Shown here piece by piece: positions 17,182-58,513 of a DNA stretch of 64,000 nucleotides. Both the position numbers and the translations under genes were made by a program. Numbering within the stretch: position 1 is the first letter of the stretch; each line of letters begins with the position of its first letter. The DNA is from a virus, in the IMG/VR virus record IMGVR_UViG_3300046171_000314, positions 1 through 64,000 of that record. One strand, written 5' to 3'. The notes under the pieces were generated by a model. That model had not been told where the DNA came from and searched no databases. It was given only the letters and a program-made list of their open reading frames with translations.

Positions 17182-17634
17182 ATGAAAAAAATGATTCAGC
17201 GTGTAGCAAGCAGATACTTGTCTAGCAGTAAGAACCAAAAACGATATCAGAAGGGTGTTGTCGATCAGATGGCGTGGAAAAGGTTCGACCAAAGCCCTCT
17301 TAAAGACTCCGATGAAAAGATGTATGTGGTGTTCGGAAAAGTCTATTCAGACGTTTCACGAGATTCTATGATGAAGGGTAGCAATATGACAACAGAGGTT
17401 GTACCTCGTCTAACTGCTTACCTAGAACTGCCTCAGGTAAAACAAGAGTTCACGAAGCACAAAAGGAGCGGTACTTGGTCTGCTAGTAATGATGGGTCTG
17501 TGTTGTTTCAACAGCACTCACAGGGTCTTGAGTTCAGAGGTGGCTACTCCTACACTTATAAATTTACAGTAGATGGCAAACCCATCAACGAAGCACTTGC
17601 CAAGCAAGTTGTTAAGTGGGCTGAGAAACTTTAG
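17182..17634 (+). CDS. hypothetical protein with N-terminal RVA tag
   Basis: MKKMIQRVASRYL; GAGGTG RBS. Confidence 0.7.
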   Translation: MKKMIQRVASRYLSSSKNQKRYQKGVVDQMAWKRFDQSPLKDSDEKMYVVFGKVYSDVSRDSMMKGSNMTTEVVPRLTAYLELPQVKQEFTKHKRSGTWSASNDGSVLFQQHSQGLEFRGGYSYTYKFTVDGKPINEALAKQVVKWAEKL

Positions 17635-17643
17635 GAGGTATCA

Positions 17644-18171
17644 ATGAAAGACAAACTCATTACATTACTCAATAAGGATAAAGCCCATTCTGTTCAGGCG
17701 ATGGAACTCAATAAGACTCTCGGATTACTTCAAAATAAGGAAATAGCCTCAATTCTTATGGCAAACCTGAAGCAAAGCGGTTGGGTTGTGTCGGAGATGC
17801 TCCAAAGGCTCGAAGACTTAGACGATGATTGGCATACCTTTTTACGGAAACGGAGGGGTGCTTCTTGGACTTTTGATTATGAGTCCAAAGACACAATACT
17901 TTCAGACTTTCCTTCTGTAACCCTTTATGGGGAAGTCGGAATGGGTCTTGAAGGTTCATCTTTGGAAGAGCATGGGAAAAATGTAGGCGAATTTCTTATT
18001 CTTGTAGAGAAACAAATATTGTCTTGGCTCTCAAAACGACCTTTAGTGAAGAGTGCCGACAGAACAATCTTATTAGAACCTGTATGTGATAGCGAGGGTT
18101 ATGGTTGGACTTTTTACATTGCTATAGAAATTGATTTCGATTCCCTCACACAACTTATTTTGGGGAACTAA
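17644..18171 (+). CDS. hypothetical protein with N-terminal QA-helix tag
   Basis: MKDKLITLLNKDKAHSVQAMELNKTLGLL. Confidence 0.7.
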   Translation: MKDKLITLLNKDKAHSVQAMELNKTLGLLQNKEIASILMANLKQSGWVVSEMLQRLEDLDDDWHTFLRKRRGASWTFDYESKDTILSDFPSVTLYGEVGMGLEGSSLEEHGKNVGEFLILVEKQILSWLSKRPLVKSADRTILLEPVCDSEGYGWTFYIAIEIDFDSLTQLILGN

Positions 18172-18172
18172 T

Positions 18173-18757
18173 ATGAGAAAACTATCAAAACAGGCAACAC
18201 TGCACCTGATGCTTCAGGGCTTATGGAAAGGCATTCAGGAAGCAAAAACAGACCCCAAAGTTATGAAAAAATATCCGAAGGGCTTGGGTTGGGTTGAAAA
18301 GTTTGTTGTTGACTTGGGCAAGAAAGCAAGAAACCCAAAGTTCAAACTCACCCAAAAGCAGGTTGACAAACTTAATGAATTTCTTGTCTTTGCTCGTCAT
18401 GGGTCGAACTTGAGTAAGATACTCCGAAAGCATATCGTAAAGCATTGCAAAGGAAACCAATGTGAAATACTCAGCCCCAACACTTTCCACTTCAAATTTG
18501 TTGAAGACGAGCACGACTCAGGTGCGATACTGAAGACTATGGAACAGGCGACAAAAGAATTTTATGATAGTCAAGGCAGCAGAGATCGATACAGAGACTC
18601 TAAGATGACCGCTTGGCAAGAAGACCCGAACCAATCCCTTGAAGATTTTAAGAAAGAGATATACTCGCAGTGGAGGGGGCTTCCCGGATCTGTAGAGTTC
18701 TATTACGACCCCAAAGAAAAGAAACACTTTGCGTTCGCAACATACAACACTTTTTAA
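18173..18757 (+). CDS. hypothetical mosaic protein (KLSKQA leader)
   Basis: N-half similar to 18768..19487; C-end similar to 52220..52546. Confidence 0.7.
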   Translation: MRKLSKQATLHLMLQGLWKGIQEAKTDPKVMKKYPKGLGWVEKFVVDLGKKARNPKFKLTQKQVDKLNEFLVFARHGSNLSKILRKHIVKHCKGNQCEILSPNTFHFKFVEDEHDSGAILKTMEQATKEFYDSQGSRDRYRDSKMTAWQEDPNQSLEDFKKEIYSQWRGLPGSVEFYYDPKEKKHFAFATYNTF

Positions 18758-18767
18758 TAGAGGACAT

Positions 18768-19487
18768 ATGAAAAAATTATCAAAACAGGCAACAATTCAC
18801 CTGCTGTTGCAGGGAATGTATAAAGGACTCCAAGAGGCAAAGAAAGACCCTTTGGTTCAAGAGAAATACCCAAAAGGATTGGACTTCATCGAGGGGTTGG
18901 TTATTGACTTAGGCAAGCGAGCAAAGAATAACCCAAACTTTACTCTGTCTAAGAAGCAAGTGAAAAAACTCAATCAATTCTTATCGGGTTCATCAGGGGT
19001 TCTCTCTGCTGTTCTGAGAAGACATATTGTTATGCACTGCAAAGGGAATCAATGCACAATGGTTTCTCCAAATGAGTTTCGATTTGAATATGTCGAACCT
19101 CCAAAGAAAACTTTTCAAGTAAGTGGGGAGTTTGCGTTTTATGGAAAGATTCGAGAGCACGAAGCCTCTGAGAAAATCGCTATTCCTGTAAAGTCTTACG
19201 AGAAACTTTCGGACTTCTTGGAAGAAATTGGGTCTTCCTTTCACAACCTTTCTTACAAGAGAGTGGGACCAAAACAGAAAGGTGTTGATAGTTCGTGGGA
19301 GACTGTGTCCGTTGATGGGGACAGGATTCTTTGGGAATCAGAGTTAGAGTGGGACTATGATTATTTCCAATCTGAGCAAATCAACAAAGTACATTTGACC
19401 ATCTATGTAAATGGAAACCAAGTGAAAGATAAGAAAGTCCTTGAACAAGGGGCAGCCTTCTATCGAAAAAAATATCGAACTATGTAA
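18768..19487 (+). CDS. hypothetical mosaic protein (KLSKQA leader)
   Basis: MKKLSKQATIHLLLQG...HIVMHCKGNQC shared with the upstream gene. Confidence 0.7.
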   Translation: MKKLSKQATIHLLLQGMYKGLQEAKKDPLVQEKYPKGLDFIEGLVIDLGKRAKNNPNFTLSKKQVKKLNQFLSGSSGVLSAVLRRHIVMHCKGNQCTMVSPNEFRFEYVEPPKKTFQVSGEFAFYGKIREHEASEKIAIPVKSYEKLSDFLEEIGSSFHNLSYKRVGPKQKGVDSSWETVSVDGDRILWESELEWDYDYFQSEQINKVHLTIYVNGNQVKDKKVLEQGAAFYRKKYRTM

Positions 19488-19521
19488 GTTCAAGTACATT
19501 AAAACACACATCGAGTACCAC

Positions 19522-19550
19522 AAAGGGTTCAAGACGTCTTGAACCCTTTT
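19522..19550 (+). terminator. intrinsic terminator
   Basis: AAAGGGTTCAAGACGTCTTGAACCCTTTT palindrome. Confidence 0.7.
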
Positions 19551-19574
19551 CTATATTTGTTTTCCCAAACACCC

Positions 19575-19601
19575 TAACGTAAATTTTCGGTAATCGTATA
19601 G
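19575..19601 (+). promoter_or_regulatory. class A phage promoter motif
   Basis: TAACGTAA-N11-TCGTATAG. Confidence 0.8.
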
Positions 19602-19670
19602 AGAGAGAATGGAGAACCGACATCTGTTGGCTCTGTCAATTTTTCACTCTTTTAACTTATGAGGTACATT

Positions 19671-19997
19671 ATGGACTTTGAAACTTTTTGGGCAGGTTTT
19701 AATACACCGCCACCAACCACTATTAACATTGACTCACAACCTGTTGAGGTTCTTCGCTATATCACTGACAAAGGTCTTTTGGCATTGGACATTGACTTCA
19801 TCGATGACTATCTTCTCAAGGTCACACCAACCCACCCTGATGAATGGGAATACGATGAGCATTGTGTTGGCGAGATCGAGGATTTCAGAGATCGAGCCAT
19901 TGCTGCTCAAGACCATGAAGAAGGTCGTTGGTTGGCTGCGGTCAACAATCCTGACCACCCCGACCACAAAGCAGAGTGGGATAAACTCAACAAGTAA
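19671..19997 (+). CDS. acidic hypothetical protein
   Basis: GAGGT RBS. Confidence 0.6.
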   Translation: MDFETFWAGFNTPPPTTINIDSQPVEVLRYITDKGLLALDIDFIDDYLLKVTPTHPDEWEYDEHCVGEIEDFRDRAIAAQDHEEGRWLAAVNNPDHPDHKAEWDKLNK

Positions 19998-20022
19998 TCT
20001 TTCAATCCCAACAATCAATCAC

Positions 20023-20054
20023 AAAAGCCCCTTCGGTACTTGAAGGGGCTTTTT
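20023..20054 (+). terminator. intrinsic terminator
   Basis: AAAAGCCCCTTCG...TGAAGGGGCTTTTT. Confidence 0.65.
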
Positions 20055-20072
20055 CATTTAGGAGAATACAAT

Positions 20073-20483
20073 ATGACAACTTACTTATTACACGTTTGGG
20101 ATATGGGTATACACCATGTCACTCCCTGTGCCACCAAAGAGGCAGGCATTGAATTCCTATTGAAGACAATGTACGATGACAACTTCAAAACCCTTGAAGA
20201 CCTTGAAGCCTTTTGGGATAGAGAGGGCGATGGTTCTTATGAGTGGGAAGAAGCCCAAGTGGTCGGTGCAGATGGTTATCAAGGTGCTGACAAGTATCGA
20301 CTTGATCCCAAGTTATTGGCTCGCCTTACAGATGCTGCCTACTTCGGTGTGATGGATGACATCATCATACTGCTCGAAGAGGGCTGTCACTTGCGAGACC
20401 TTGACAAGGTGGTCGAAGATGCCGCTGAGAAGATGGCTTGTGAAATGGGCTGTGATGACTTTGAACCCGATTCTGAATTTTAA
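20073..20483 (+). CDS. acidic hypothetical protein
   Basis: AGGAG RBS. Confidence 0.65.
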   Translation: MTTYLLHVWDMGIHHVTPCATKEAGIEFLLKTMYDDNFKTLEDLEAFWDREGDGSYEWEEAQVVGADGYQGADKYRLDPKLLARLTDAAYFGVMDDIIILLEEGCHLRDLDKVVEDAAEKMACEMGCDDFEPDSEF

Positions 20484-20500
20484 TTACAAGGAGAACTATT

Positions 20501-20983
20501 ATGCCAAAATCAAACTATGAGAATATTAGCAAGGCTTTCATCAAGCACCTTTACTGTAAGGGCAAATTGTCAATGAGAGACACCCTTATTCGTTTTGCTC
20601 AACAAGGATACGATGTCAATGGCTCGTCAAGCCCTGTCATTGACGACAGAAACTATTGGCAAGAATGGACACACCTCTCTATTGGTGTGGAACATCTTTT
20701 TGAGTTTCATACAGCGACATTGGGAGTCACCGCCAAATTAAACACTCAGATTGAACCTGTCTTTGATGGACTTCCCTTAGAATATAAGTATATCTACCAT
20801 CTATGGGTAAAGGGGGAAATGCCTGAGTGTGATGGTTGCCCCACTCCCTCGTGGATATTTTCGGGCTGCTCTCAAAGGAATAAGTCTTGGGAGATGCTCT
20901 ACGATATCCCATTTCGATTTTCAAAAGGATACCGAAAAAAGTATCCCCACAACATTAACCACTTACACCATCTTGATTGGTAA
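20501..20983 (+). CDS. hypothetical protein
   Basis: AAGGAG RBS. Confidence 0.6.
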   Translation: MPKSNYENISKAFIKHLYCKGKLSMRDTLIRFAQQGYDVNGSSSPVIDDRNYWQEWTHLSIGVEHLFEFHTATLGVTAKLNTQIEPVFDGLPLEYKYIYHLWVKGEMPECDGCPTPSWIFSGCSQRNKSWEMLYDIPFRFSKGYRKKYPHNINHLHHLDW

Positions 20984-20994
20984 GGAGAACTATT

Positions 20995-21624
20995 ATGACT
21001 ATGAAAGATTTTTTAGAAGCACAGGCAACCGTTGAAGCAGGTTGCTACCTGAGTAACAACAGAGGCAAAGACCCTGCGAACTTTTTGAACTACGCATCGG
21101 TTGGGGACTTTGTTCTTGATAGAGGAGAACCCCCTGCGGTTTCCGAACCTCTAACAGAGGAACAGTACGAGTATTTGATGCAGGTCGTTGAGAGCAGTGT
21201 CGAGAGTGAGTTTCCCTATAAACAATGCTTTTACAACTCACAGGTGTTGCTTATCGCAGACTTCCAAGACCGCTTGGTGTATTGCGAAGGATACTGTCAA
21301 GCCAAAACAATCCCTGTTCATCACGGATGGTTGGAGTTGGATGGCAAAGTCGTTGATGTCACTTTCACCGCAAAGGCGAAACACACTGAACCTCAACGCA
21401 AAGACTTGAAAGACAGAGTGCTTGGGGAAATCCCTAATGGTTGGGAGTACTTGGGTGTTCGGTTCGACAAAGAGGATATCCTTGATTTCATTCGAGAATA
21501 TGAGTCCGCAGAGGGAATGATTGGGAACTTCCGACAATTGAAATCCACCTTTATGTTGCCAAGAATCACTCCTAGAGATTTTGGTGCTTGGGAAAAACTT
21601 AAAAATAAAGTGTCCGCACCCTAA
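20995..21624 (+). CDS. conserved phage protein with Cys/His (papain/transglutaminase-like) motif
   Basis: KQCFYNS...YCEGY...PVHHGW...VVDVT. Confidence 0.55.
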   Translation: MTMKDFLEAQATVEAGCYLSNNRGKDPANFLNYASVGDFVLDRGEPPAVSEPLTEEQYEYLMQVVESSVESEFPYKQCFYNSQVLLIADFQDRLVYCEGYCQAKTIPVHHGWLELDGKVVDVTFTAKAKHTEPQRKDLKDRVLGEIPNGWEYLGVRFDKEDILDFIREYESAEGMIGNFRQLKSTFMLPRITPRDFGAWEKLKNKVSAP

Positions 21625-21648
21625 CGTAAAATCGTATCAATCGTATAG
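21622..21648 (+). promoter_or_regulatory. class A phage promoter motif
   Basis: TAACGTAA-N11-TCGTATAG. Confidence 0.8.
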
Positions 21649-21677
21649 ACAATGAATCAATCACAATGGAGGTCAAT

Positions 21678-22081
21678 ATGGCTACACTTAAATTTCAAAT
21701 CCCTCTCGATCCTGAGGTGATACTAGACATCTTAACATCGGCACACGATGCCAATGCTTGCAACTATTTCCTTATGGAGCAGCCCCCTTTCTTATCTGCC
21801 AAGTGGTACGACAAGATGAAGGCTGACCCCAAACTTTGGGAGACCTTTGAATGGAGGTTGCTTGTCGATGATGGTTCTGACAAGGGTGAAGAGCAAACAA
21901 TCACCTTTGCACGAATGTGCTTTGGCTTGCAGAAGATGCTCACAGATGAAATCAATGGCAAGTACAAGAATCGTTGGCATCGAGTCACTGATGTTGTCGG
22001 TAGGTCGTGATTACGGTTGATTCTGTGTTCGCACAGGATGTCATTCAATATGCAATGTACGGAAAGGTCATCTTCGGATGA
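21678..22081 (+). CDS. conserved phage protein, apparently frameshifted near 22000-22016
   Basis: a shifted frame gives the typical C-terminus DSVFAQDVIQYAMYGKVIFG*; removing two extra G bases restores one ORF. Confidence 0.55.
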
Positions 22082-22186
22082 TCTTTATTTTTATTTATCA
22101 GGAGAATACAAATGTCTTTTACAAAAAATGAGCAGTGTCTAATTGCCTTTGTTAGAGAAACCACCAACCAAAAGGAGACAGGACAA

Positions 22187-22860: not shown

Positions 22861-22883
22861 GTTCTCTTTGGTAATATATTGCA

Positions 22884-22982: not shown

Positions 22983-22988
22983 GTTTTT

Positions 22989-23015: not shown

Positions 23016-23061
23016 GTACCAACAACAAACGAACCGAAGTTCTTTTCGGTATCACTTTTCA

Positions 23062-26929: not shown

Positions 26930-27646
26930 ATGAAACTATTTATGAAAATGAACTCTCCTTTGCTGCAAGAGATTGTAAGCGATCAGGACTTCACAGATTC
27001 AGGTTGGTCTTGGTGGGAGGTTTGGGGAGAACACGCAGAGGTCATTGAAGAGTACTTTGGCATTAGAAACTTTTATGCAAGCGAAGACGACAGGTTTCTC
27101 ATCGATAAGAAAGAAACCTATATTGAGGTTAAAAAGGGCAAGGCGATACTAATGATATCAGGTGATATAGAATCGACATACAAGCACAGAGGGGCAACCA
27201 AGAACATTGGAAAAGTTATTACCAACAAATGCTTCAAAAAAGAATTAGATTGGCATTGGGATTTGCACGAGTGGACATCTGATGGGAAAACAACTGAGAT
27301 GACTTTTGGAGTGGGGAAAGATTACTCGGCTTCTTATGGTGACAACGAGAATTGGATCGCAAGAGTTGATGCCGTAGGCAAGGCAATGGAACTTCTCAGC
27401 CGATTTGAAAAGGTTAAGGGCAGACGAACCAAAGAGCAACAAGAGACCGCAGACCGAGAGAGTCAAAACTACCTTTCTAAACTGAAAGAAATGATTAATA
27501 CAGATGACCCTGCGAATATCAACCAAGCAATATCTCTTGCAGAGTCACTTGGTGTAATGGGAGAATTGAAGAGTGCTGTGGTATCCCAAGCCTACGCAAC
27601 CATTAAAAAAATGGGGATTAATCTCACAAAGATAGAGGGACTATAA
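26930..27646 (+). CDS. hypothetical protein with C-terminal QA-helix tag (paralog of 28084..28764)
   Basis: MKLFMKMNSP...ATKNIGK...NINQAISLAESLG...INLTKIEGL. Confidence 0.75.
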   Translation: MKLFMKMNSPLLQEIVSDQDFTDSGWSWWEVWGEHAEVIEEYFGIRNFYASEDDRFLIDKKETYIEVKKGKAILMISGDIESTYKHRGATKNIGKVITNKCFKKELDWHWDLHEWTSDGKTTEMTFGVGKDYSASYGDNENWIARVDAVGKAMELLSRFEKVKGRRTKEQQETADRESQNYLSKLKEMINTDDPANINQAISLAESLGVMGELKSAVVSQAYATIKKMGINLTKIEGL

Positions 27647-28074
27647 TGAGCATTAAAAGACACTTGAACGCACTGCTACATAGAACTCGTGGAGGACATT
27701 CTTTCCACAAGGTTCGTGAGAGCATAGCCAATATGGAAGAGCAAGAAGCACAAGAGTGGTATCGGTTTATCACCAATGCTGTGGAAGATGCCAAGATGCA
27801 AGCCAAGAACCAAGCAAGAAATCGTGGTGGGTTCTTTGCAAGCCAACAAAGAGTAGCCGCTCGATACCTTGATAAGGTATCATCTGAATTTTTGGGGGAA
27901 CTAGAGTACTATCCTGTAACAACACGAGGTCGAACCACCTACGAAGTCATTATAGAGTGGGCAGACGATAAGGTATGGAGAAGTAAAGAAGCAAAGGCTA
28001 TACAGAAAGACCTTGATGACACTCTTTATGATGCTTTAGCGAAATTCTCGAAGAAGCATCCTAGTCTAGGTTAA
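27646..28074 (+). CDS. hypothetical protein with internal RVA tag
   Basis: ASQQRVAARYLDKVS. Confidence 0.65.
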   Translation: MSIKRHLNALLHRTRGGHSFHKVRESIANMEEQEAQEWYRFITNAVEDAKMQAKNQARNRGGFFASQQRVAARYLDKVSSEFLGELEYYPVTTRGRTTYEVIIEWADDKVWRSKEAKAIQKDLDDTLYDALAKFSKKHPSLG

Positions 28075-28764: not shown

Positions 28765-29328
28765 ATGAAAGTCTCAGCAATACGAGTTGCTTACCGATAT
28801 CTATCCGCAGATTTGTCCCCACCTTTAGGGGGTTCGGACAATCCCTGTGATGTTCTTAAGCGAATTGAGAAAGAAGTTTCTGATCCCCGTAACAAGAACA
28901 AACTGATTCGATTGGTGGAAGATGGCAAAGACCTGAGTAATCCTCAGGCTAATGTTGTTTATGATCTTGAAAGAGAGAAAGGCGTAGGCAAACTTAAATT
29001 CAAAAATATAGATATAACAGCACACGCTCAGTATCGAATGGACTTAAGGGGAGTGTCTGTTGCTGAGGTTCGGAGTGCTCTGTACTCTTTCCAAAAGAAC
29101 ATACAGGTTCAACGTTCTCAAAGAGGATGGTCTATGCTAGAAGAAAAATTGGAACGAGATGTTGTTTCATATACTGCCACCAATAAACTAAAAATAGTCT
29201 TTGAACCCTACTTAGATGGCAGAGGCAGAAATCTCCTTGATAGAGTGACAGGCTGTAAAATCATTACAGTATACTTTGAGGGTATAAATAACCCCACACC
29301 ACCTACCCTAGAGTCCTGTGGTCTATGA
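28765..29328 (+). CDS. RVA-tagged protein with DUF4258/BECR-like RNase-fold motif
   Basis: SAIRVAYRYLSA; ITAHAQYRMDLRGVS...KIITVY. Confidence 0.55.
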   Translation: MKVSAIRVAYRYLSADLSPPLGGSDNPCDVLKRIEKEVSDPRNKNKLIRLVEDGKDLSNPQANVVYDLEREKGVGKLKFKNIDITAHAQYRMDLRGVSVAEVRSALYSFQKNIQVQRSQRGWSMLEEKLERDVVSYTATNKLKIVFEPYLDGRGRNLLDRVTGCKIITVYFEGINNPTPPTLESCGL

Positions 29329-39122: not shown

Positions 39123-40047
39123 CTACCTTGCCAAGTCAATTTTTATAGCATCAGGAGCAATCTTTTTGGCGGCTTTCAGAACACCAATCACTGCATCATC
39201 ATACTCATATCCATAGGTCTTACAGAAAGCGAAGTCTTGTATTCCTTTTGAGAGATAAAAGTCTTCTCCAACATCTCCCAAAGAACCATTAAACAAAATA
39301 TAGTCATTTTTCAATTCGGGCTTGCCTTTTCCATTTCTGCCTCCAACCCAAAAGTCACCTCCATCAAAGGTGAGGATAGTCTTGGCTTCACGAAGAATTT
39401 TACTCCACTCTTTATCTGAGAAATCCCTACTCATATTCCAATAGTGCGTTCGACCTGCGGTGAGGTATCTTTGGGCAACACGATAAGAAGAAGGCTTCTT
39501 TGATGCCAATCGTATTTGAGGGGGCATTACTTGCACACCTCTCTGACTAATCTCAGGAGAAATCACACAAGCAGGTCTTCGAACCAAGTAGTTGGGGCCA
39601 CTTCTCATACCAAACCTTGTAAAACTGTTCCACAGACATAACACGAGTTGTTTCCATTGGGTTGGGCATATTCGGGTCTGCGATAGACACTTGTGTCAGG
39701 TCGTTAGACACAGAGTACACGACACTTGCGTGCGACCAATCACGACCTTCAGGGTTATAGGCAATGATTACAGGAAGCCCTCTGCTAGTCCATTCCTTCA
39801 ACTGCTCAATGTTGCAAGGGGCTGTCAGGGTGGCTCTCTTACCAAAGTGTTGTGTGGCGGCTACAACCTGCTCCCAAGTTGCCCCTTGCATAGGGCGAGC
39901 ACCCATCACTTTATTGACTTCTTCCTCTGTGAGATCCATACCAAGAGCATTAAGGCACATCATAAGCGAGCAAGGAACACAGGTATATTGGGTTCTTTGT
40001 CTTACAGGTGTCACCAAAGCCTCAGTTATGTAAGATTGAAATTCCAT
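39123..40047 (-). CDS. C39-like cysteine peptidase fused via an RVA tag to a conserved THYW...FCKT domain (frameshift at ~39594-39597)
   Basis: QRTQYTCVPC...HASVV...IADP catalytic C/H/D; removing one C in TGGCCCCAA gives KWPNYLVRRPA...RVAQRYLTAGRTHYW; class C motif at 40082-40094. Confidence 0.7.
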
Positions 40048-40091
40048 AAAGCACCTCATATATTGTCTGTGGTGCGGATAATATAAAGCAA

Positions 40092-40277
40092 TTATTGCAT
40101 TTCTTGGATCTGTACAATTGCTTCTGTTGTGCCTGCCCAAAATCCATTTATGTAGGCAAGTCGATAAATTTCCTCTTGAGATAGGTTAGGAGGCAATCTT
40201 TCTATATCTTTGGAGAAGTCCTTTCTCTTTAATGTTTTTCCTAGTTTTTCTCTTAGCAGACTAATGAATTTTTTCAT
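40092..40277 (-). CDS. hypothetical protein
   Basis: GGAGG RBS. Confidence 0.5.
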   Translation of the reverse strand: MKKFISLLREKLGKTLKRKDFSKDIERLPPNLSQEEIYRLAYINGFWAGTTEAIVQIQEMQ

Positions 40278-48236: not shown

Positions 48237-48266
48237 TAATGCCTCTATAAAAATATAAAAGCATTA
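48237..48266. promoter_or_regulatory. pair of opposed class C motifs
   Basis: TAAT-GCCTC-TATA (+, 48237-48249) and TAAT-GCTTT-TATA (-, 48254-48266) serving divergent genes. Confidence 0.6.
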
Positions 48267-48282: not shown

Positions 48283-48633
48283 ATGAAAAACCCAAGCATA
48301 CAAAGAGTTGCCAACGCATACATCAAAGCCTCTTCTTTTGATATTGAGATGAGTACAGGTATGTGGAGTGATGGACAACAGTTCCTTAAGGCTATCAATA
48401 AAGAACTGAGTGCAGAGGGACTACCTGAGGTGTATCGAGTGGTGATTGACTCTCTGAAGGGATTCAATGGATATGAACTTATTCTTTCTTGGAAGGAGAG
48501 TTACGGTCAAGTAAAGAACACACAAATGTGCAATGTCATAAAGAACTATGCTGAAAAGAAATTTCCCACAAGCCTGTCGGTGCAGCCCTCAAAGATAACA
48601 GGCAGGGCACACTACAAAGTCATTTTGAAATAG
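48283..48633 (+). CDS. RVA-tagged hypothetical protein
   Basis: MKNPSIQRVANAYIKASS. Confidence 0.65.
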   Translation: MKNPSIQRVANAYIKASSFDIEMSTGMWSDGQQFLKAINKELSAEGLPEVYRVVIDSLKGFNGYELILSWKESYGQVKNTQMCNVIKNYAEKKFPTSLSVQPSKITGRAHYKVILK

Positions 48634-48642: not shown

Positions 48643-48720
48643 ATGAAAACGCCAAGTATTAAAAGAGTTGCTTTTCACTACTTGAACAAAAGAGCGAGCC
48701 TATATGAGAGAAATCTTTAA
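48643..48720 (+). CDS. 25-aa tag-only peptide
   Basis: MKTPSIKRVAFHYLNKRASLYERNL*; AGGA RBS; stop overlaps the SNase ATG. Confidence 0.45.
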   Translation: MKTPSIKRVAFHYLNKRASLYERNL

Positions 48721-49076
48721 TGGAACTCTACACCTATAAAGCCACTATCACATCTGTCTATGATGGAGATACCTGCACCGCAGATGTCGATCTCGGTTTC
48801 TATATGATACAACGAAAGGTCAAGGTTCGCCTTTATGGTATCAACACCGCAGAACTTAGGGGTGGCACAGAGGAAACAAAACAAGCCGCTGTACAGGCTC
48901 GTGACTACCTCAGAAATTGTGTTCTCAACCAAGAGGTGTTGTTGAAATCTTGTGGGAAAGGCAAGTATGGTCGTTGGCTCTGCGAAATCTTTGTGGTTGA
49001 TCCACAGACAGGCGAGAAGACCAATGTCAATCAGAAACTAATCGAACTTGGTCTTGCTGTTCCCTATATGGTCTAA
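48720..49076 (+). CDS. thermonuclease (SNase-like)
   Basis: VYDGDT; VRLYGINTAEL; GKYGRWL; LIELGLAVPY. Confidence 0.9.
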   Translation: MELYTYKATITSVYDGDTCTADVDLGFYMIQRKVKVRLYGINTAELRGGTEETKQAAVQARDYLRNCVLNQEVLLKSCGKGKYGRWLCEIFVVDPQTGEKTNVNQKLIELGLAVPYMV

Positions 49077-50279: not shown

Positions 50280-50642
50280 GAGTCACCTCTTTATGTGTGT
50301 GTATGTGTGTGTATGAACCTATCTGATTGAAGGTTCGATATACTATACCCAAGAAAACTTCCTTGTCTTTTATTTATTTTTTTCAAATAAGACCCTTGTG
50401 TTTTCGGTACTATCCACAAAGGAGAGAATGGTGATAGATACGCAAGCAGATGACTTTTGGGCGTGGGTGAGTTTAGGTTGGGCACTGACCCTACTCGTAT
50501 GGCTGTTGATACTTTGGGAAATACGAAGACCCCCAAGCCCCTGTGATGGAATTTATTTTAGAGAAGCACACCTAAGATGTCTTTGGGAGCAAAGTAAATA
50601 GTTTCTCTATATTCTTTTCAAAGTGTATTGGAGAAAAACATA

Positions 50643-51143
50643 ATGGCTCGTTCAGACAAAGAAAAGAAAGAAATATATGACAAGTGGAAAGGCTTGATCA
50701 ATATGAGCCAATCGGCTCTCGATGAATGGGCTAAGAATCCTGCTCGTTTGGAAGCCTCTCTCAATAGAGCGAAAGCCAAAGATGAGGGTGGGATTCAAAG
50801 TGGTCTTGATTCTCTCCACCGCATCAAAAGAAGAAAGTCCAAACCTGTCAAAGAATGGTCTGACCAAGATTACGACAATGCGGCTCAGGAGAATGGGTTC
50901 AATGGTCGTATGTTGGGCGGCAAGATTGGACAGCCTGTAGGTAGTACAGGAATGTCCAAGTGGGAAATCTCACTACGCAATTGGGGACACGACCCTGCAT
51001 TGAGTTCAAGCCCTGCTAACGCCAAGTATAAGGCTTGGAAGAAAGCAAACAAGGATGCTATTGCAAAGTCCAAAGCGAAAGCCAAGAAGAAAGCCTCTGT
51101 CGAAAGAGTTGCATATCAATATTTAATTTCTAGGAGCAGATAA
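50643..51143 (+). CDS. DUF3140-like protein with C-terminal RVA tag
   Basis: LINMSQSALDEW...WEISLRNWGHDP; KKKASVERVAYQYL; class C motif at 50599-50611. Confidence 0.7.
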   Translation: MARSDKEKKEIYDKWKGLINMSQSALDEWAKNPARLEASLNRAKAKDEGGIQSGLDSLHRIKRRKSKPVKEWSDQDYDNAAQENGFNGRMLGGKIGQPVGSTGMSKWEISLRNWGHDPALSSSPANAKYKAWKKANKDAIAKSKAKAKKKASVERVAYQYLISRSR

Positions 51144-53258: not shown

Positions 53259-53569
53259 TATACACCTCGTGCTTCAAAGTCTCGGCACGCATCCCACCCA
53301 CTTGCTGTAAGTTTGTGGGGCTTTCTCTTTTCAATAAATTCGTGATCTATTAAGAAAGATAAGAAAGGCTCAACGGGTCGTGTTGCCCTCAACCCTTTGT
53401 GGGCTGTCAAACACCACGCAGTTTTCATAACACAAAGATGCTCTAATGCTCTGTACTCCATTTCTTCTCTTGATAGGGAATCAAGTTCACAAAATTGGTC
53501 TTCCTTTAGATTGTCTCGGTAGTCATTGAACTCCCCATCTTTAAGAATTTTGAGTTTTGGCTTAGTCAT
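53258..53569 (-). CDS. hypothetical protein
   Basis: coupled ORF. Confidence 0.6.
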   Translation of the reverse strand: MTKPKLKILKDGEFNDYRDNLKEDQFCELDSLSREEMEYRALEHLCVMKTAWCLTAHKGLRATRPVEPFLSFLIDHEFIEKRKPHKLTASGWDACRDFEARGV

Positions 53570-53978
53570 CGCACACCCCCATCATCCCATTGATAATCTT
53601 CTGTCCTACCTCTGCAAACTCTGCCATTTCCCGTTTTTCTTCTTCTGTATACACGGGGAGAGGAAAGGGCACAAAACGTGCAATCTTGTGTTGGATATAT
53701 TTTTGGTTGTTATCCCCTGAATAATTAACTCTCAGGTTGTCCCTGCGATAGGCGGTGTCGGTTCGTTCATCTACGAAAGCCCAATAGTGAGTATCCACCA
53801 TTGACTTTGTGTATGCCCCTGTGTGGGTTGTGTTGTCTGTCAAAGATATCAAATGATAGTAGCCGATCTTCTTCTTGTCGAGATAGACAGAGTACTTTCC
53901 TTGATGTCGCCTAGACGAGAAAGTGACTCTCGCCATTTGGCGTTTCTTTTCTTCTTGTTGTTGTCGGATTGCGTTCAT
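53562..53978 (-). CDS. hypothetical protein
   Basis: AGGAG RBS. Confidence 0.6.
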   Translation of the reverse strand: MNAIRQQQEEKKRQMARVTFSSRRHQGKYSVYLDKKKIGYYHLISLTDNTTHTGAYTKSMVDTHYWAFVDERTDTAYRRDNLRVNYSGDNNQKYIQHKIARFVPFPLPVYTEEEKREMAEFAEVGQKIINGMMGVCDD

Positions 53979-53990
53979 TGTATTCTCCTG

Positions 53991-54245
53991 TCAGGTTTCA
54001 ATGATTGGTTGTTGTAATAAAAGTCTTGTCTCTGCTATACCGACATCGGATGGTTTTCCGTTTGTCTTGTCATAGTCGATCAATAAGCCGCTAAAGTCGA
54101 ACTCTATCTTCTGACCGCCTCTTGCTGTCCAAGATGTAAGCATCCCATATCTTCTGTTTGGGCATCGAGGTTTATTCATCAGGGCTTCAATGCGAGCCTT
54201 GTTCCGTTGCTTTCTTTGGAATCTTTTCTTTTGTTTGCGGTTCAT
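53991..54245 (-). CDS. basic hypothetical protein
   Basis: GAGGTG RBS; ATGA-coupled. Confidence 0.55.
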   Translation of the reverse strand: MNRKQKKRFQRKQRNKARIEALMNKPRCPNRRYGMLTSWTARGGQKIEFDFSGLLIDYDKTNGKPSDVGIAETRLLLQQPIIET

Positions 54246-54661
54246 TTTTCACCTCTCTTTTTGAAAGACACACGAGCCTTTCGGGTTTTTTGTTGCAGGG
54301 CTGTAAGTACTACCGATTTCATCTCGGTGGGTAGTTGTGGAAACACCTCTTCGAACTTTGGGTGCGTCCTGACATTGGTTTGGAAGAGCAATTGGAAATA
54401 GTGTCCAAGTCTTTGAGATAACTGACTATCCTCTAAAACAAGGTAGTCGGTCTTTGGCTCAGAGACAGAGAACTCTCCAAAGGGGGTTTCATATCTTCCT
54501 TTGCCCTTCTCTCGGAGTTCTTCTTTCCCTTGTTCGATGTAATCTTGAAGGGTGGATTGGAAGAGCCACATAATTGCGAGCAACTCTTTTCTATCCTTTG
54601 TGGTATCCCATTCCTTTTGAAGGGAATCGAATAGCCTTTGGAATTGTAGATAAGTAGACAT
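54242..54661 (-). CDS. hypothetical protein
   Basis: AAGGAG RBS before ATG 54661. Confidence 0.6.
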   Translation of the reverse strand: MSTYLQFQRLFDSLQKEWDTTKDRKELLAIMWLFQSTLQDYIEQGKEELREKGKGRYETPFGEFSVSEPKTDYLVLEDSQLSQRLGHYFQLLFQTNVRTHPKFEEVFPQLPTEMKSVVLTALQQKTRKARVSFKKRGEK

Positions 54662-54685
54662 AATATTCTCCTTTGAATTAAATAC

Positions 54686-54716
54686 AAAAAAACTCCCCAC
54701 CCGAAGGTGGGGGTTC
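54686..54716 (-). terminator. intrinsic terminator
   Basis: CCCCACC-TTCG-GGTGGGG hairpin followed by a T-run on the minus strand. Confidence 0.75.
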
Positions 54717-54730
54717 TTTATAGGAATTCC

Positions 54731-55585
54731 CTATGCACATTCATAGTGAATAGGGTTTTTTGAATTCTCAACATCCCATATTGCTTTGCTGCCCATTTTG
54801 ATGGTTTTACCACACTTGTCACACTCAAGGTCACAAGGGGCTTCCATCACTGTTGCAGGGTCGATAACAGCACTTGACTTAGGGGCTTCAACCTCAACAA
54901 GATCCTCCCAAGATTCTTCAACCTTTTCAGGCTCTTCTTCTTTGGACTCTGCCTGTGCTTTGGCTTCCTCTTTTCGCTTGGCATCTTCAGCATCAAGCCC
55001 CTCTGCAATTTCGAGGAAAGCAAGGAAAGCAGTTCTCTTACAAGACCCTGCAAGAGGACAAGCCTTGCAAGTAGGACTTCTCTCTGCCCAATAACCAAAG
55101 CAAGAGGTTTGAGAGATAGCGATCTCTTTAATACTCTCGTCATTGTGATAAGTATCCTCAGGAATATCTCCGATTGTCCAAGACACCCCATCACCTTCTT
55201 CAAAGTTGGTGGGATTTGCAACAGGTTTGGTGACTCGAACTTCAACAACAGTATCTTCTTGCCATTCAACCTTTGAGGCAGGGGCGTTTCCTTTTGCCTT
55301 TGTGATACCCTCAGCGGTCAAGCCATACTTACCACGACCCTTCGCCTCGCCCAACCCTTCTTCACGAAGTTTGGTAAAGGCTTTGGTGATATTGTATCGT
55401 ACCCAAGAGCGAGGATTTTTCTGACTTGTCATATAACCCCAAGCATCTTCCTCAATAGAGTGATGGTCACAGAAGGCTGTGACCATATCATCAAGTTGAG
55501 TGTGATCCGCAGGGGTGGCTACCAAGCCGCCAAGCACTATCAGAAGAGAAGGCTTGAGTTTAGAGGGGGAAAGTTTTGTAGTCAT
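54731..55585 (-). CDS. winged-helix-like protein with 4-Cys motif and extra Zn ribbon (paralog of 6224..6805)
   Basis: EDAWGYMTSQKNPRSW...GRGKY; CFGYWAERSPTCKACPLAGSC; CDKCG...HYEC. Confidence 0.75.
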   Translation of the reverse strand: MTTKLSPSKLKPSLLIVLGGLVATPADHTQLDDMVTAFCDHHSIEEDAWGYMTSQKNPRSWVRYNITKAFTKLREEGLGEAKGRGKYGLTAEGITKAKGNAPASKVEWQEDTVVEVRVTKPVANPTNFEEGDGVSWTIGDIPEDTYHNDESIKEIAISQTSCFGYWAERSPTCKACPLAGSCKRTAFLAFLEIAEGLDAEDAKRKEEAKAQAESKEEEPEKVEESWEDLVEVEAPKSSAVIDPATVMEAPCDLECDKCGKTIKMGSKAIWDVENSKNPIHYECA

Positions 55586-55644
55586 AATGACCTCCGAATG
55601 AAAAATGAAAGAGAAAAAATACAGCAGTTTATCAACTACATCCT

Positions 55645-55671
55645 CTATACGATAGAGAAAATTTTACGTTA
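55645..55671 (-). promoter_or_regulatory. class A phage promoter motif
   Basis: TAACGTAA-N11-TCGTATAG. Confidence 0.8.
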
Positions 55672-55676
55672 CACCT

Positions 55677-56831
55677 TCAGGCTACTTTTATTTTAGCCTC
55701 TGCAATTCTGACAGGGATAAGCGTTGTCAAATCTCCACGATCCGACCCAATATAGGCTTCCTCGCCTTTTCTAGTGAGAGATAAGGTATTGATCCCTGTG
55801 GCTCTGATCAGCCCTGCGGATATCAAATTATTTACCATTTCAACATCTTTTGATGTCTCTTTGCCCCAAGATCCTGATTTCACTGCTCCCAAGATCACCA
55901 TTTGTCTGTGATGATCTTGACCGATCTTCAACAGGTCTTTTCTCATATAGGATTTGAGAACTCTTGCTCTGCTTTCAGATCGATCAATCTCCTCCGCCAA
56001 CTCCCCATCAGACAAATCTGACATAATTGCATTGAGGACTTGTGCGTTGAACTCCCCTTTATGTGTCCCCTCCATTGTATTTATGGCAAGGAGAATACCA
56101 CGATAGGACTCTCGGCTCTCCAACTCCTCTTGATCTATATAGACATCTTCAGGGCTACTGCTATGGTCTACCACCACAGATGTAATGTTGCCCTTATCGT
56201 CAGACACCACCGCTTGATCAAATGAGTCGTGTCGATGTTGAGATTGGGATTCCCCTGATATGACCTCTTGCTTAGACCTCTTGCCCCTTGCACGACAATG
56301 AGCATCTTGACCGCCTTTTTGCGTAGCATTTGTATGCTCTCGCATAGCAAAATTGACGATAACAGAAGCATACACCTTTTTGCCTGCTTTGAGTTGCTTG
56401 TCAAAGGCTCTGTTCTTCAGGGCTTTGGCATTGTAGTTTGCGAGAACATCCTCTGCTTCCTCACCTGTTCCATAAAGTTTGGAGGATAACTTGCGGAGGA
56501 TTTCCTTGTGCATTTTTGGATACTCTGTGCGATACCATGTGTCGGTGAGAGAGTTTTCTTCTTCGGTTTCGATAACAGGTCGTACAGGCTCTGTGGTCTC
56601 TAGGGTATGCTCATAGACACCCCAAGCGAAATCAACGAAGGTTACAGGCTCTGTGCGGCTGTAATAAACATCCTCAGTGATAAGATGGTTCTTATACTCG
56701 GTGAGGGATACCTTGAGATTGAGAGGGGCTACCTCTGTTCTTCTATATAGATTGTCTAGGACAATAGTGGTGTTCGTAATGAATTCTTTGGTATAGTTAG
56801 AAACGAACCACGCCAACGTGCGATTTTTCAT
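55677..56831 (-). CDS. divergent sigma-factor-like protein
   Basis: region-2-like EEAEDVLANY; SSPEDVYIDQEE; region-4-like LSDGELAEEIDRSESRARVL. Confidence 0.5.
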   Translation of the reverse strand: MKNRTLAWFVSNYTKEFITNTTIVLDNLYRRTEVAPLNLKVSLTEYKNHLITEDVYYSRTEPVTFVDFAWGVYEHTLETTEPVRPVIETEEENSLTDTWYRTEYPKMHKEILRKLSSKLYGTGEEAEDVLANYNAKALKNRAFDKQLKAGKKVYASVIVNFAMREHTNATQKGGQDAHCRARGKRSKQEVISGESQSQHRHDSFDQAVVSDDKGNITSVVVDHSSSPEDVYIDQEELESRESYRGILLAINTMEGTHKGEFNAQVLNAIMSDLSDGELAEEIDRSESRARVLKSYMRKDLLKIGQDHHRQMVILGAVKSGSWGKETSKDVEMVNNLISAGLIRATGINTLSLTRKGEEAYIGSDRGDLTTLIPVRIAEAKIKVA

Positions 56832-56909
56832 AGGGGTCTCCCATTTTGATCAGTGATGTAGGATTAAGCGTGACCGTAGTCACAAAAGATGAAAATCTTT
56901 ATTACAGAC

Positions 56910-56939
56910 AGTATATCATAGATTCCGAAAAATCGTCAA
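56910..56939 (-). promoter_or_regulatory. host sigma70-type promoter
   Basis: TTGACG-N18-TATACT with extended TG. Confidence 0.65.
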
Positions 56940-57016
56940 GGTTTTTGTGCGATAAAGATCCTCAATAATTTGTCTATCGAATGTGGTTGGTGAAACTACG
57001 GTTAGGAGTTACAAAA

Positions 57017-58513
57017 ATGAATTTCAAGAAAAAGGCTTTCAGCACAAAAGATAAATCGACCCTGATACGGACATTTATTAATGACCCAAATTTTGGGAAC
57101 TTGAGTAACTATCCTGATATTGTGAGTGCTACGGATTCCCAATTAGCGGAGATGTTTGACTACGTTGTTGTTCAAGGAAAAAGACAGTGGAAAACTGGAC
57201 CTTCAAATATGAACTCAAAGGAATGGACAGAAGAGATAGAGTCAAGGTTCTCCTATTATCTAAGTGGGCAAAACATCAATACGACTATTGATACAACAGT
57301 TGATGACCCCACCCAAATGATAAAAAATGTTCACAGACAAGACAATATTCTTGGGAGGAACATACAAGGTTATATCGGAAGTAAGCCTGCTAACGAGCAG
57401 CACGTAGGACAACTTGCCGCAGGGTTCATTAAGTTTATGGCATCTCGTGTAAAGGATATGCAGAAAAACCATAAGATTATGAGAAGGCACATCAAGAATG
57501 TCACAGAACTTGGTGGGAATACTGATGAAGATGGTGGGCTAGATATAGAAAATATGGCAGATGAAGCCGCTATGGGTGGAGGTCGAGCCACAGGACACAG
57601 GTACTTTTTAAGAAATTGGCACGACTACTACAAGTACTCATCAGAGGTACAACAAATCGGAGAAGCCATTGAAGGCATTGATAGTGTTTTTGTCGACTTG
57701 GTTCAAAATGCGATAGAGCCTGCGATCCTAAAGCAAACCTTCAAGGCAGGCGGTCTGACAATTGAAGAAGAGCGGTTCATCTTCTATGCAGGATTTGGAT
57801 TAGATTACTTCGTTCCTTTTTCAAGTGGATCATCTGAAAACCAAACTCAACAATTGGGGAATATGCGAATTGTTCCTCCTTTCAGAAAGCCCTCTGTGTA
57901 TGACCTTAGTTACTATTTGCTTTGTTCTGCTTTGAAGAGAAGTGGGATGACCTTAAAAGAATTCGGAGATGTTGAAGAGGTAGCAGGAAAAAAATCCAAA
58001 GGGAAGATGTCTGCTAGTGCGAACTATAAGAAATACTTGAAAGCAATAGAAATGGCATTCAATGGGGGGTCAGGAAAGCCTTATGATCAAGTCTATGGGA
58101 ACGCAGGAAAAACAGCCCAAACAACCGCTGCCAAAATAAAAAACACTAATCAATTTGAAGCGAAGGATTTGAACGGATTGCGAGCCATCATCACTAAGAA
58201 GATTGGGTCACAAGGACAGTTTGAGAAAGCGGCTTTCGAACTAACTCAATTCCACATTGAAATGGACGAGGATAAGTCTTATGCGGAATGGCTTCCTGAG
58301 GGCTTTGCTTCGAACTATCCAAAGTACGCAAAAGAACTACTCAAGCACTTTGAAACGTTAGATATAGGACTTACCATCCTTGCAAGTAAGAAAACAGCCT
58401 CTGCTGTTCGTGTTGCAAATGCTTATATGGATAAGTACAAGAACAATCGACTTATCCAACGAGTGGCTTACAAGCACTTGATGAATAACGCCAACCCCAA
58501 AATCAGTTTTTAG
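57017..58513 (+). CDS. large probable virion protein with two C-terminal RVA tags
   Basis: MNFKKKAFS leader; KKTASAVRVANAY and LIQRVAYKHL; class C motif at 56966-56978. Confidence 0.7.
   Translation: MNFKKKAFSTKDKSTLIRTFINDPNFGNLSNYPDIVSATDSQLAEMFDYVVVQGKRQWKTGPSNMNSKEWTEEIESRFSYYLSGQNINTTIDTTVDDPTQMIKNVHRQDNILGRNIQGYIGSKPANEQHVGQLAAGFIKFMASRVKDMQKNHKIMRRHIKNVTELGGNTDEDGGLDIENMADEAAMGGGRATGHRYFLRNWHDYYKYSSEVQQIGEAIEGIDSVFVDLVQNAIEPAILKQTFKAGGLTIEEERFIFYAGFGLDYFVPFSSGSSENQTQQLGNMRIVPPFRKPSVYDLSYYLLCSALKRSGMTLKEFGDVEEVAGKKSKGKMSASANYKKYLKAIEMAFNGGSGKPYDQVYGNAGKTAQTTAAKIKNTNQFEAKDLNGLRAIITKKIGSQGQFEKAAFELTQFHIEMDEDKSYAEWLPEGFASNYPKYAKELLKHFETLDIGLTILASKKTASAVRVANAYMDKYKNNRLIQRVAYKHLMNNANPKISF

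What the first reader, a model, noticed from the sequence alone, without database searches (positions are those of the whole stretch)
17182..58513. Portable 'RVAxxY/H' tag on unrelated proteins: candidate virion-cargo loading signal
Seen: the same short motif occurs at the N-terminus, C-terminus or a domain junction of otherwise unrelated proteins. Instances: IQRVASRYL (17182), QQRVAARYL (27646), AIRVAYRYL (28765), SYRVAQRYL (C39 fusion, ~39480), IQRVANAYI (48283), IKRVAFHYL (48643), VERVAYQYL (50643), AVRVANAYM and IQRVAYKHL (57017). It is usually flanked by a small-residue or K-x-A site, and every carrier lies in a unit headed by the class C motif. Known: T4 internal proteins use a short capsid-targeting sequence that the prohead protease removes. 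Inference: this is a position-independent address label that packages diverse payloads (RNase-fold, peptidase, DUF3140) into the head for injection.
Basis: partly seen in the sequence, partly recalled or inferred. Interest (0 to 1): 0.85.

Follow-up and report, generated by a model that had tools for sequence, protein, structure and literature searches.

The report
Portable helix tag on huge-phage proteins
An uncultured huge ocean phage and its relatives attach the same ten-residue helix (Ser-x-x-Arg-Val-Ala-x-Arg-Tyr-Leu) to either end, or to domain joints, of dozens of unrelated and mostly basic proteins; it behaves like an interchangeable address label, most likely for loading these proteins into the phage head, but where it sends them has not been shown.

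Summary
The whole 148-kb record holds 18 to 21 copies on about 15 proteins, against about one expected by chance, and most lie within 25 residues of a protein end. Codons differ between copies, so selection acts on the peptide.

Relatives show that the tag is portable. In one cargo family it is N-terminal, C-terminal, at both ends or at a domain joint. In the DUF3140 family it is followed by nothing or by several different domains, and bacterial and short homologues lack it.

The tag occurs in two related huge phages (289 kb and 485 kb) and in hundreds of metagenomic proteins. It is absent from phage G and Tunturi_5.

Head loading is only inferred. Carriers are basic, several sit in the head-gene block, none lies behind the two other promoter-like motifs, and a K-x-A-S joint also precedes the conserved tail of the scaffold-like protein. 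The promoter link did not replicate in the closest relative, and no receptor was found.

This scan had already noted the same tag further along the same genome (e1-5864001). I class it as a new variant of a known kind, function unproven.

The parts
17182..17634 (+). Carrier 1, 150 aa of unknown function. N-terminal tag MKKMIQRVASRYL; tag core at 17200-17220.
   Evidence: No Pfam or PHROG match. pI 9.8.
27646..28074 (+). Carrier 2, 142 aa. Tag ASQQRVAARYL at a domain joint (core 27850-27870, residue 69).
   Evidence: The orthologue in the 289-kb relative keeps the N-domain and the tag but has a different C-domain.
28765..29328 (+). Carrier 3, 187 aa. N-terminal tag MKVSAIRVAYRYL (core 28783-28803), directly followed by the family core ADLSPPLG.
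   Evidence: Among 40 homologues the tag is N-terminal in 14, C-terminal instead in at least 3, at both ends in 1, and behind an extra N-domain in 8.
39123..40140 (-). C39-like cysteine peptidase (39553-40140) plus the tag-bearing ORF (39123-39644; tag SSYRVAQRYL at 39462-39482). In the relative this is one gene; here the frame changes between 39601 and 39593 at a CCCC run.
   Evidence: Pfam PF13529 and PF03412. Sequence. The relative's 268-aa ORF aligns in two frames.
48283..48633 (+). Carrier 5, 116 aa. N-terminal tag MKNPSIQRVANAYIKAS (core 48304-48324). A class C promoter-like motif lies at 48244.
48643..48720 (+). 25-codon ORF consisting only of a tag, MKTPSIKRVAFHYLNKRASLYERNL (core 48664-48684). 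Its stop overlaps the start of the nuclease gene (TAATG).
   Evidence: It resembles the N-terminus of a 334-aa tagged protein that occupies this place in the relative.
48720..49076 (+). Staphylococcal-nuclease-like gene in a different frame from the tag ORF. It carries no tag of its own.
   Evidence: PF00565 at 2e-10 and phrog_452 at 7e-25. The orthologue in the relative has no tag.
50643..51143 (+). Carrier 7, a 166-aa DUF3140 domain. C-terminal KKKASVERVAYQYLISRSR (core 51105-51125). A class C motif lies at 50606.
   Evidence: PF11338 on homologues. Variable architectures. AlphaFold model with pLDDT 86, in which the tag is the end of a long C-terminal helix at about 70.
57017..58513 (+). Carrier 8, 498 aa of unknown function, with two tandem C-terminal tags: ASAVRVANAYM (58409-58429) and LIQRVAYKHL (58460-58480).
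   Evidence: No family or Atlas match.
27117..27124 (+). Example of the class C promoter-like motif (GATAAT-N3-4-YCTATAWW, about 30-40 nt before a start codon). It heads the unit that contains carriers 2 and 3.

Best explanation
The motif is a short amphipathic docking helix. Ser caps it, Val, Ala, Tyr/Trp and Leu form one face, and two Arg residues flank that face. It works as a modular address label.

Shown:
- It is selected as a peptide.
- It sits on flexible ends or joints of unrelated proteins.
- It is kept while the domains around it are swapped.
- Within one protein family it can move from one end to the other.

Inferred:
- One phage-encoded receptor recognises it during head assembly. 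The receptor could be the scaffold core or the inner face of the HK97-type capsid protein.
- Tagged proteins, which are small, basic and partly enzymes, are thereby enclosed in the prohead and later leave with the DNA.
- Proteins with two tags bind more tightly or bridge receptor sites.
- At least some tags are cut off at K-x-A|S joints by the head-maturation protease.
For: - Enrichment and bias to protein ends.
- Differing codons between copies.
- Portability. In the 28765 family the tag is N-terminal, C-terminal, at both ends or at a joint. In the DUF3140 family it is followed by nothing or by several different domains, is N-terminal in P0038, and is absent from bacterial and short forms. 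Orthologues in the 289-kb relative keep the tag while the flanking domains change.
- Conservation across phages with 42%, 45% and 55% G+C, and absence of phage ClpP. Both argue for a phage-encoded receptor.
- Link to the head. Tagged or tag-like proteins lie between portal and protease (116324; topoisomerase IB 112256, whose orthologues are tagged) and just after the capsid block (129417, 130468, 131781).
- Carriers are basic, with median pI 9.2 against 6.2, p=0.0008. T4 internal proteins are also basic (my own knowledge, not looked up here).
- 11 carriers lie in class C units, which also head capsid and tail genes, and none in AB or D units, p=0.0033.
- [KR]-x-A-S occurs 44 times against 25±5 in shuffles. 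KKAS is conserved just before the conserved C-terminal tail of the scaffold-like protein in three phages. This parallels the herpesvirus scaffold M-site (PMC4498786).
- AlphaFold models show the tags as helices set apart from the folded cores.
Against: - There are no virion proteomics for any phage that carries the tag. No cultured phage has even the hallmark tagged protein.
- The cultured capsid relatives, phage G and Tunturi_5, lack the tag.
- The promoter-class association did not replicate in the 289-kb relative with the same patterns: 2 C, 3 AB or D, 6 unassigned. Class C also heads about half of all genes.
- No receptor was identified. Tag-like stretches in the scaffold and capsid proteins are no better than chance.
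- Only about a fifth of the copies in this genome have a K-x-A-S site nearby.
- No phage capsid-targeting signal that works from a C-terminus or an internal position is known.
Confidence: 0.5

Rival explanations
1. The helix docks onto a phage-encoded hub that is not part of the virion, for example a replication or assembly factory, a cytoskeletal filament (the genome encodes an actin-like protein) or a chaperone. It would then concentrate accessory proteins at one place in the infected cell rather than inside the head.
For: Short terminal helices are the usual way of binding clamps, actin-like filaments and chaperones (general knowledge). Three carriers (97289, 98330, 100418) lie next to clamp-loader genes. 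Double tags suit a repetitive or multimeric hub. Nothing measured here distinguishes the inside of the head from another phage-made assembly.
Against: No carrier lies in a unit headed by the D motif, which heads the polymerase-region, recombination and clamp-loader genes. None of the recognisable replication proteins carries the tag. Several carriers sit inside the head-gene block. No tag-like tail was seen near the actin-like gene.
Confidence: 0.25
2. The tag is a self-associating sticker. The helices pair with each other, so that proteins with two tags act as cross-linkers and proteins with one tag as clients of a protein condensate or inner body, with no separate receptor.
For: Many carriers have two or three copies: 57017, 100418, 129417, 130468 and 131781 here, and several in the relatives. 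The helix is amphipathic. The very conserved 100418 family has tags at both ends around a largely low-confidence helical core.
Against: Seven fixed positions, including two arginines on one face, are more typical of a specific groove than of helix-helix pairing. Like charges would repel. No test was possible.
Confidence: 0.1
3. The tag is a degradation or unfolding signal read by a host AAA+ protease. Such signals can also sit at either terminus. It would limit the lifetime of accessory proteins.
For: ClpX-type recognition signals occur at either N- or C-termini of unrelated proteins (general knowledge). Phage G particles contain ClpP and ClpX (PMC12484599).
Against: No ClpP gene is present in this record, in the 289-kb relative or in the 485-kb relative. 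The tag is nearly unchanged between phages of 42% and 55% G+C, which probably infect different hosts. It sits on the most conserved hallmark proteins and in the head module, often twice, and it also occurs at internal joints.
Confidence: 0.07
4. The motif has no function of its own. It would be a by-product of shared ancestry of short gene ends, or of DNA-level recombination modules.
For: Some neighbouring carriers could be duplicates. The tag-only ORF at 48643 shows that fragments of tagged genes persist.
Against: Codons differ between copies. The regions outside the tag are unrelated. The tag is kept across about 45-55% protein divergence while the flanking domains are exchanged.
Confidence: 0.03

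Closest known systems
Capsid targeting sequence (CTS) of phage T4 internal proteins IPI-III and Alt (PMC3012670; Mullaney and Black 1996, as cited in PMC10052503)
   Same: A short conserved peptide is shared by otherwise diverse, basic accessory proteins. It is portable to foreign proteins, directs them into the scaffolding core of the prohead, and is removed by the prohead protease.
   Different: The T4 signal is only N-terminal and is followed by a Leu/Ile-x-Glu cleavage site. The tag here has no sequence likeness to it, works from the N-terminus, the C-terminus or a domain joint, often occurs twice, and packaging is not shown.
Cargo-loading peptides of encapsulins (PMC7355545)
   Same: A short peptide at either the 5' or the 3' end of the cargo gene is sufficient for loading into a shell built from an HK97-fold protein. 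Unrelated cargo enzymes share it.
   Different: The consensus is different (Gly/Ser/Leu-rich and extended, not an Arg-Val-Ala helix; from my own knowledge). Encapsulins are cellular compartments with one to a few cargo types encoded next to the shell gene. No encapsulin shell gene is present here. Here dozens of carriers are scattered over a phage genome.
Encapsulation peptides of bacterial microcompartments (my own knowledge, not looked up)
   Same: An amphipathic helix of about 18 residues at the N- or C-terminus, joined to unrelated enzymes by a poorly conserved linker.
   Different: No BMC shell gene is present. The motif here is shorter and has fixed residues.
C-terminal capsid-binding tail of herpesvirus and P22 scaffolding proteins, and the assemblin M-site (PMC4498786)
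   Same: A short terminal segment binds the major capsid protein and is cut off at an Ala|Ser bond. Here KKA-S precedes the conserved tail of the scaffold-like protein, and K-x-A-S precedes many tags.
   Different: That tail belongs to one protein, the scaffold, and is not a label shared by many cargo proteins. Cleavage here is only inferred.
N-terminal propeptides of head and ejection proteins of phiKZ-like giant phages such as SPN3US (PMC10052503)
   Same: Many head-internal proteins of giant phages carry removable terminal segments, which are thought to help targeting.
   Different: Those propeptides are N-terminal (only the protease has a C-terminal one), are 20 to 254 residues long, share no common motif and are cut at Ala-x-Glu.

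Membership tests
T4-type capsid targeting sequence | Located at the extreme N-terminus of the cargo | tested here: not met
   About 8 copies are N-terminal, 8 C-terminal and 4 internal in this genome. One cargo family carries the tag at either end.
T4-type capsid targeting sequence | Followed by a prohead-protease site and removed after loading | tested here: inconclusive
   K-x-A-S is enriched near tags (3 of 18 against 0.2) and at 26 of 31 DUF3140 joints, and is conserved in the scaffold-like protein. Most tags in this genome have no such site, and cleavage itself cannot be tested.
T4-type capsid targeting sequence | Sufficient to load a protein into proheads | not testable with these tools
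   Needs a fusion-protein packaging assay or virion proteomics. No cultured carrier phage is known.
Encapsulin cargo-loading peptide | Short peptide at either terminus of unrelated cargo proteins | tested here: met
Encapsulin cargo-loading peptide | Encapsulin (Linocin_M18) shell gene next to the cargo genes | tested here: not met
   No PF04454 match in the record. The only HK97-type shell protein is the phage major capsid protein (phrog_2522).
Encapsulin cargo-loading peptide | Binding to the inner face of the HK97-fold shell protein | not testable with these tools
The only hint is that the capsid protein is unusually conserved: 94% and 86% identity against medians of about 55% and 43%.
Bacterial microcompartment encapsulation peptide | BMC-domain shell proteins present | tested here: not met
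   No PF00936 match.
Double-glycine leader cut by C39 peptidases | Leader ends in Gly-Gly and is N-terminal | tested here: not met
   No Gly-Gly follows the tag, and many tags are C-terminal. The C39-like gene itself carries a tag.
AAA+ protease degradation tag | A cognate phage-encoded protease is present | tested here: not met
   No ClpP gene in three tag-bearing genomes. Host proteases were not tested.

The most novel reading that the evidence does not exclude
A whole clade of huge marine and freshwater phages uses an encapsulin-like, position-independent loading peptide. A second, 27-residue peptide can take its place. The peptide docks on the HK97-type capsid or scaffold lattice and fills the head with dozens of different enzymes and basic DNA-associated proteins. 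An assemblin-like Ala|Ser cleavage then frees them for injection. This would make the phage head a programmable delivery container.
Probability: 0.3. Interest if true: 0.85.

Novelty: new variant of a known kind. Interest (0 to 1): 0.66.

Why it matters
If the tag does load proteins into the head, three things follow:
- It marks, by sequence alone, the injected or packaged protein set of a large and uncultured group of huge phages. That turns many 'hypothetical' genes into a testable class of early-acting effectors and DNA-associated proteins.
- It would be the first phage capsid-loading signal that works from either end of a protein. This links phage internal-protein loading mechanistically to encapsulin cargo loading.
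- It would give a ten-residue handle for packaging foreign proteins.

If instead it addresses another phage-made structure, it points to an unknown hub in huge-phage infection. Either way the receptor is a defined and findable target.

Tried and rejected
- **DNA-level repeat.** Rejected, because the codons differ between copies.
- **Phage G particle proteomics (PMC12484599) as a test.** Not usable, because phage G and Tunturi_5 lack the tag.
- **Receptor by sequence mimicry.** The tag-like stretches in the scaffold-like protein (CIRIAQATL, rank 37 of 42,541 windows), the capsid N-arm (rank 279) and inside the capsid protein (RVARVFM, rank 35) are within chance for the number of windows examined.
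- **Acidic EEKATLYAE repeats of the scaffold-like protein as docking sites.** Not conserved in the relatives.
- **Function of carriers.** Pfam, PHROGs, the ESM Atlas and a Foldseek search of the DUF3140 model gave almost nothing. Exceptions are C39 here and, in the relatives, topoisomerase IB, a HAD domain and a 2H phosphoesterase.
- **AlphaFold model of the 100418 protein.** Too uncertain for a fold search (pLDDT 64).
- **Replication of the promoter-class link in the 289-kb relative.** Failed or uninformative: more than half of its genes could not be assigned.
- **C39 peptidase as the tag-processing enzyme.** No Gly-Gly site is present.
- **Phage ClpP degron.** No ClpP gene is present.
- **Microcompartment or encapsulin shells.** Absent.
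- **DNA search of the phage collection with 8 kb of the window.** No match.
Full report
**What the window is.** The window is the first 64 kb of a 147,878-bp virus record that is judged about 56% complete. Further along the record lie:
- a large terminase (105881);
- a portal (108820);
- a head-maturation protease (116890);
- an acidic scaffold-like protein (118326);
- an HK97-type major capsid protein (120293-121165, phrog_2522);
- recombination, clamp and clamp-loader genes at 85-96 kb.

By capsid protein the nearest records are an uncultured 485-kb phage (LR745208.1, 86% identity), Tunturiibacter phage Tunturi_5 (49%) and Bacillus phage G (39%). A closer relative is a 289-kb IMG/VR contig. 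It shares 130 of my 219 ORFs, at a median of 55% identity.

**The observation.**
One further hit, at 54570 on the minus strand, is chance.
- Across the whole record the strict motif occurs 11 times against 0.48 in shuffles. The loose motif occurs 18 times against 1.28. Copies within 25 residues of a protein end number 12 against 0.37.
- Counting two weaker C-terminal variants (RVVDRYL, SLADRWL) and the mini-ORF, I see about 8 N-terminal, 8 C-terminal and 4 internal copies on about 15 proteins. Five proteins carry two copies.
- The codons for Arg, Val and Ala vary between copies, so the peptide is what is conserved.
- The extended consensus is (KKx[AP])-S-[IVA]-x-R-[VI]-A-x-[RA]-[YWH]-[LIM].
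- AlphaFold models of two carriers show the tag as a helix. It forms the end of a long C-terminal helix at pLDDT about 70 on a well-folded DUF3140 domain (pLDDT 86). In protein 100418 it forms helices 3-13 and 190-200, which low-confidence linkers separate from the core.

**Portability.** This is the strongest result.
- *The 28765 family.* Its core begins ADLSPPLG. Among 40 homologues the tag is N-terminal in 14. In P0173, P0199 and P0205 it is C-terminal, and the N-terminus is bare. P0169 has it at both ends. In eight proteins it lies at a joint behind an extra domain of about 115 residues. That extra domain is the N-domain of the head-module gene 128567.
- *The DUF3140 family* (carrier 50643; PF11338 on homologues). 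Of 31 homologues with a C-terminal extension, 23 carry the tag. In some the protein ends right after it. In others at least three different domains follow it, or it comes after an inserted domain. P0038 has the tag at the N-terminus. A homologue from a bacterial genome bin and the short forms have none. P0034 carries, at the same spot, the longer tag noted elsewhere in this genome.
- *The 289-kb relative.* The orthologue of 27646 keeps the N-domain and the tag but has another C-domain. The orthologues of 129417 and 130468 are fused and end in KAS-IRVAYRFLNG, at the point where this genome continues with a coiled coil and then a tag. The orthologue of 131781 ends in a perfect tag right after its SWIM zinc finger.
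- *Wider range.* The 289-kb relative has about 17 terminal or joint copies. The 485-kb phage has a variant, [RK]VAFRHLL or RVAGR[MW]L, with 13 matrix hits against 1.85 expected. Phage G and Tunturi_5 have none.
- *The 100418 family.* This protein is as conserved as the portal and terminase, at 80% and 65% identity. The family has 699 database homologues, and its consensus N-terminus is PDPxRVAxRxMxRTAGEVRF.

- *C39 peptidase.* It is fused to a tag-bearing tail in the relative. In this genome the reading frame changes between 39601 and 39593, at a CCCC run. This could be a sequencing error, a broken gene or a frameshift.
- *Nuclease.* It is not tagged. A 25-codon ORF that holds only a tag overlaps its start in another frame. 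That ORF resembles the N-terminus of a 334-residue tagged protein which sits there in the relative.
- *DUF4258.* The match on 28765 is below threshold.

**Where the label leads.** Nothing here measures this. The evidence is indirect.
- *Charge.* Carriers are basic, with median pI 9.2 against 6.2 (Mann-Whitney p=0.0008).
- *Gene position between portal and protease.* In T4 this position holds prohead-core genes (established gene order, from my own knowledge). Here it holds protein 116324, whose internal tag-like helix is conserved in all three phages. It also holds a topoisomerase IB whose orthologues carry two tags.
- *Gene position after the capsid block.* Just after the capsid and fibre genes lie tagged proteins 129417, 130468 and 131781. 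The first of these is protamine-like.
- *Promoter-like motifs.* There are three classes. Class C (GATAAT-N3-4-YCTATAWW) heads capsid, neck and tail genes. Class D (TTYGGTA) heads the polymerase-region, recombination and clamp-loader genes. Eleven carriers are in C units and none in AB or D units (Fisher p=0.0033). Two cautions apply. Class C heads about half of all genes. The same patterns gave no association in the 289-kb relative, where most genes could not be assigned.
- *K-x-A-S joints.* [KR]-x-A-S is over-represented, 44 against 25±5. It lies at most DUF3140-to-tag joints. As KKAS it is conserved in three phages exactly where the variable acidic body of the scaffold-like protein meets its conserved C-terminal tail. 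In herpesviruses the scaffold's capsid-binding tail is cut off at an Ala|Ser M-site (PMC4498786). By analogy this may be the maturation site here, but that is an inference.
- *Receptor origin.* The tag is almost unchanged between phages of 42%, 45% and 55% G+C, and these phages have no ClpP gene. Both favour a phage-encoded receptor over a host one.

**Comparison with known systems.**
- The T4 capsid-targeting sequence is the closest in biology: diverse basic internal proteins share only a targeting peptide that the prohead protease removes (PMC3012670). It is strictly N-terminal and unrelated in sequence.
- Encapsulin cargo-loading peptides are the closest in logic: they sit at either end of the cargo and bind an HK97-fold shell (PMC7355545). 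They have another consensus and belong to cellular compartments, and no encapsulin or microcompartment shell gene is present.
- Giant-phage propeptides are N-terminal, long and without a shared motif (PMC10052503).
- The paper searches I made for comparison systems turned up no description of this motif, but none of them was aimed at the motif itself.

**Verdict.**
- The tag is real, selected, modular and widespread in one clade of huge phages.
- That it is an address label is well supported. That the address is the phage head is the best reading at about even odds.
- A non-virion hub, self-association and a degradation signal remain open.
- The same tag was already noted by this scan in the adjacent part of this genome (e1-5864001). 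My analysis of this window agrees with that note. It adds the either-end evidence within single families, the C39 and nuclease corrections, the K-x-A-S and scaffold parallel, and the failed promoter replication.

Noticed in passing
window 39593-39601 (minus strand): The C39-like peptidase gene changes reading frame at a CCCC run. The 289-kb relative has one uninterrupted 268-aa ORF across this point. This could be a sequencing error, a pseudogene or a programmed frameshift.
   Followed up: partly
window 48643-48720: A 25-codon ORF that encodes only the tag. Its stop overlaps the start of a staphylococcal-nuclease-like gene (TAATG). It looks like the remnant of a 334-aa tagged gene that is present in the relative, or else a free tag peptide.
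   Followed up: partly
G000 88739, 89092, 111490, 138511 (outside the window); 10 copies in LR745208.1: A second, longer tag, (M)SxLRSK[LI]IRLAHxNPELRxxLLPLLKEA, sits at the N-terminus of unrelated proteins. One DUF3140 homologue (P0034) carries it exactly where others carry the short tag. Its first helix (IRLAH/IRVAY) resembles the short tag, so the two labels may be interchangeable or related.
   Followed up: partly
whole record; for example window 19575-19603, 48244, 50606: Three classes of promoter-like motif. The first is a 30-nt composite, CCTAACGTAAATTTTCGGTAATCGTATAGA, at 10 sites, mostly in the first 22 kb. The second is TTYGGTA, about 35 nt before replication genes. The third is GATAAT-N3-4-YCTATAWW, before structural genes and many others.
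   Followed up: partly
G000 112256-113413 (L010:10256-11413): A eukaryote/poxvirus-type topoisomerase IB catalytic domain (PF01028, 4e-24) is encoded between the portal and the head protease. Its orthologues in the two relatives are fused to other domains and carry two tags.
   Followed up: partly
G000 120293-121165: The major capsid protein is far more conserved than the rest of the genome: 94% and 86% identity to the two relatives, against medians of about 55% and 43%.
   Followed up: no
G000 100418-101026 (L006:4418-5026): A hallmark protein of unknown function with 699 database homologues. Its near-invariant segment AGEVRF.KD...W.W is predicted as disordered, which suggests that it folds only on a partner.
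   Followed up: partly
G000 116050-116301, 129417-130196 (C-terminal half), 130235-130501: Extremely basic, protamine-like small proteins are encoded inside and just after the head module. They are candidate DNA-condensing internal proteins.
   Followed up: no
G000 118326-119390: The acidic scaffold-like protein has a conserved N-terminus (MRRRRLTW) and a conserved C-terminal tail (LSKLWxSAPxIS), preceded in all three phages by KKAS. This is a candidate maturation cleavage site of the Ala|Ser type.
   Followed up: partly
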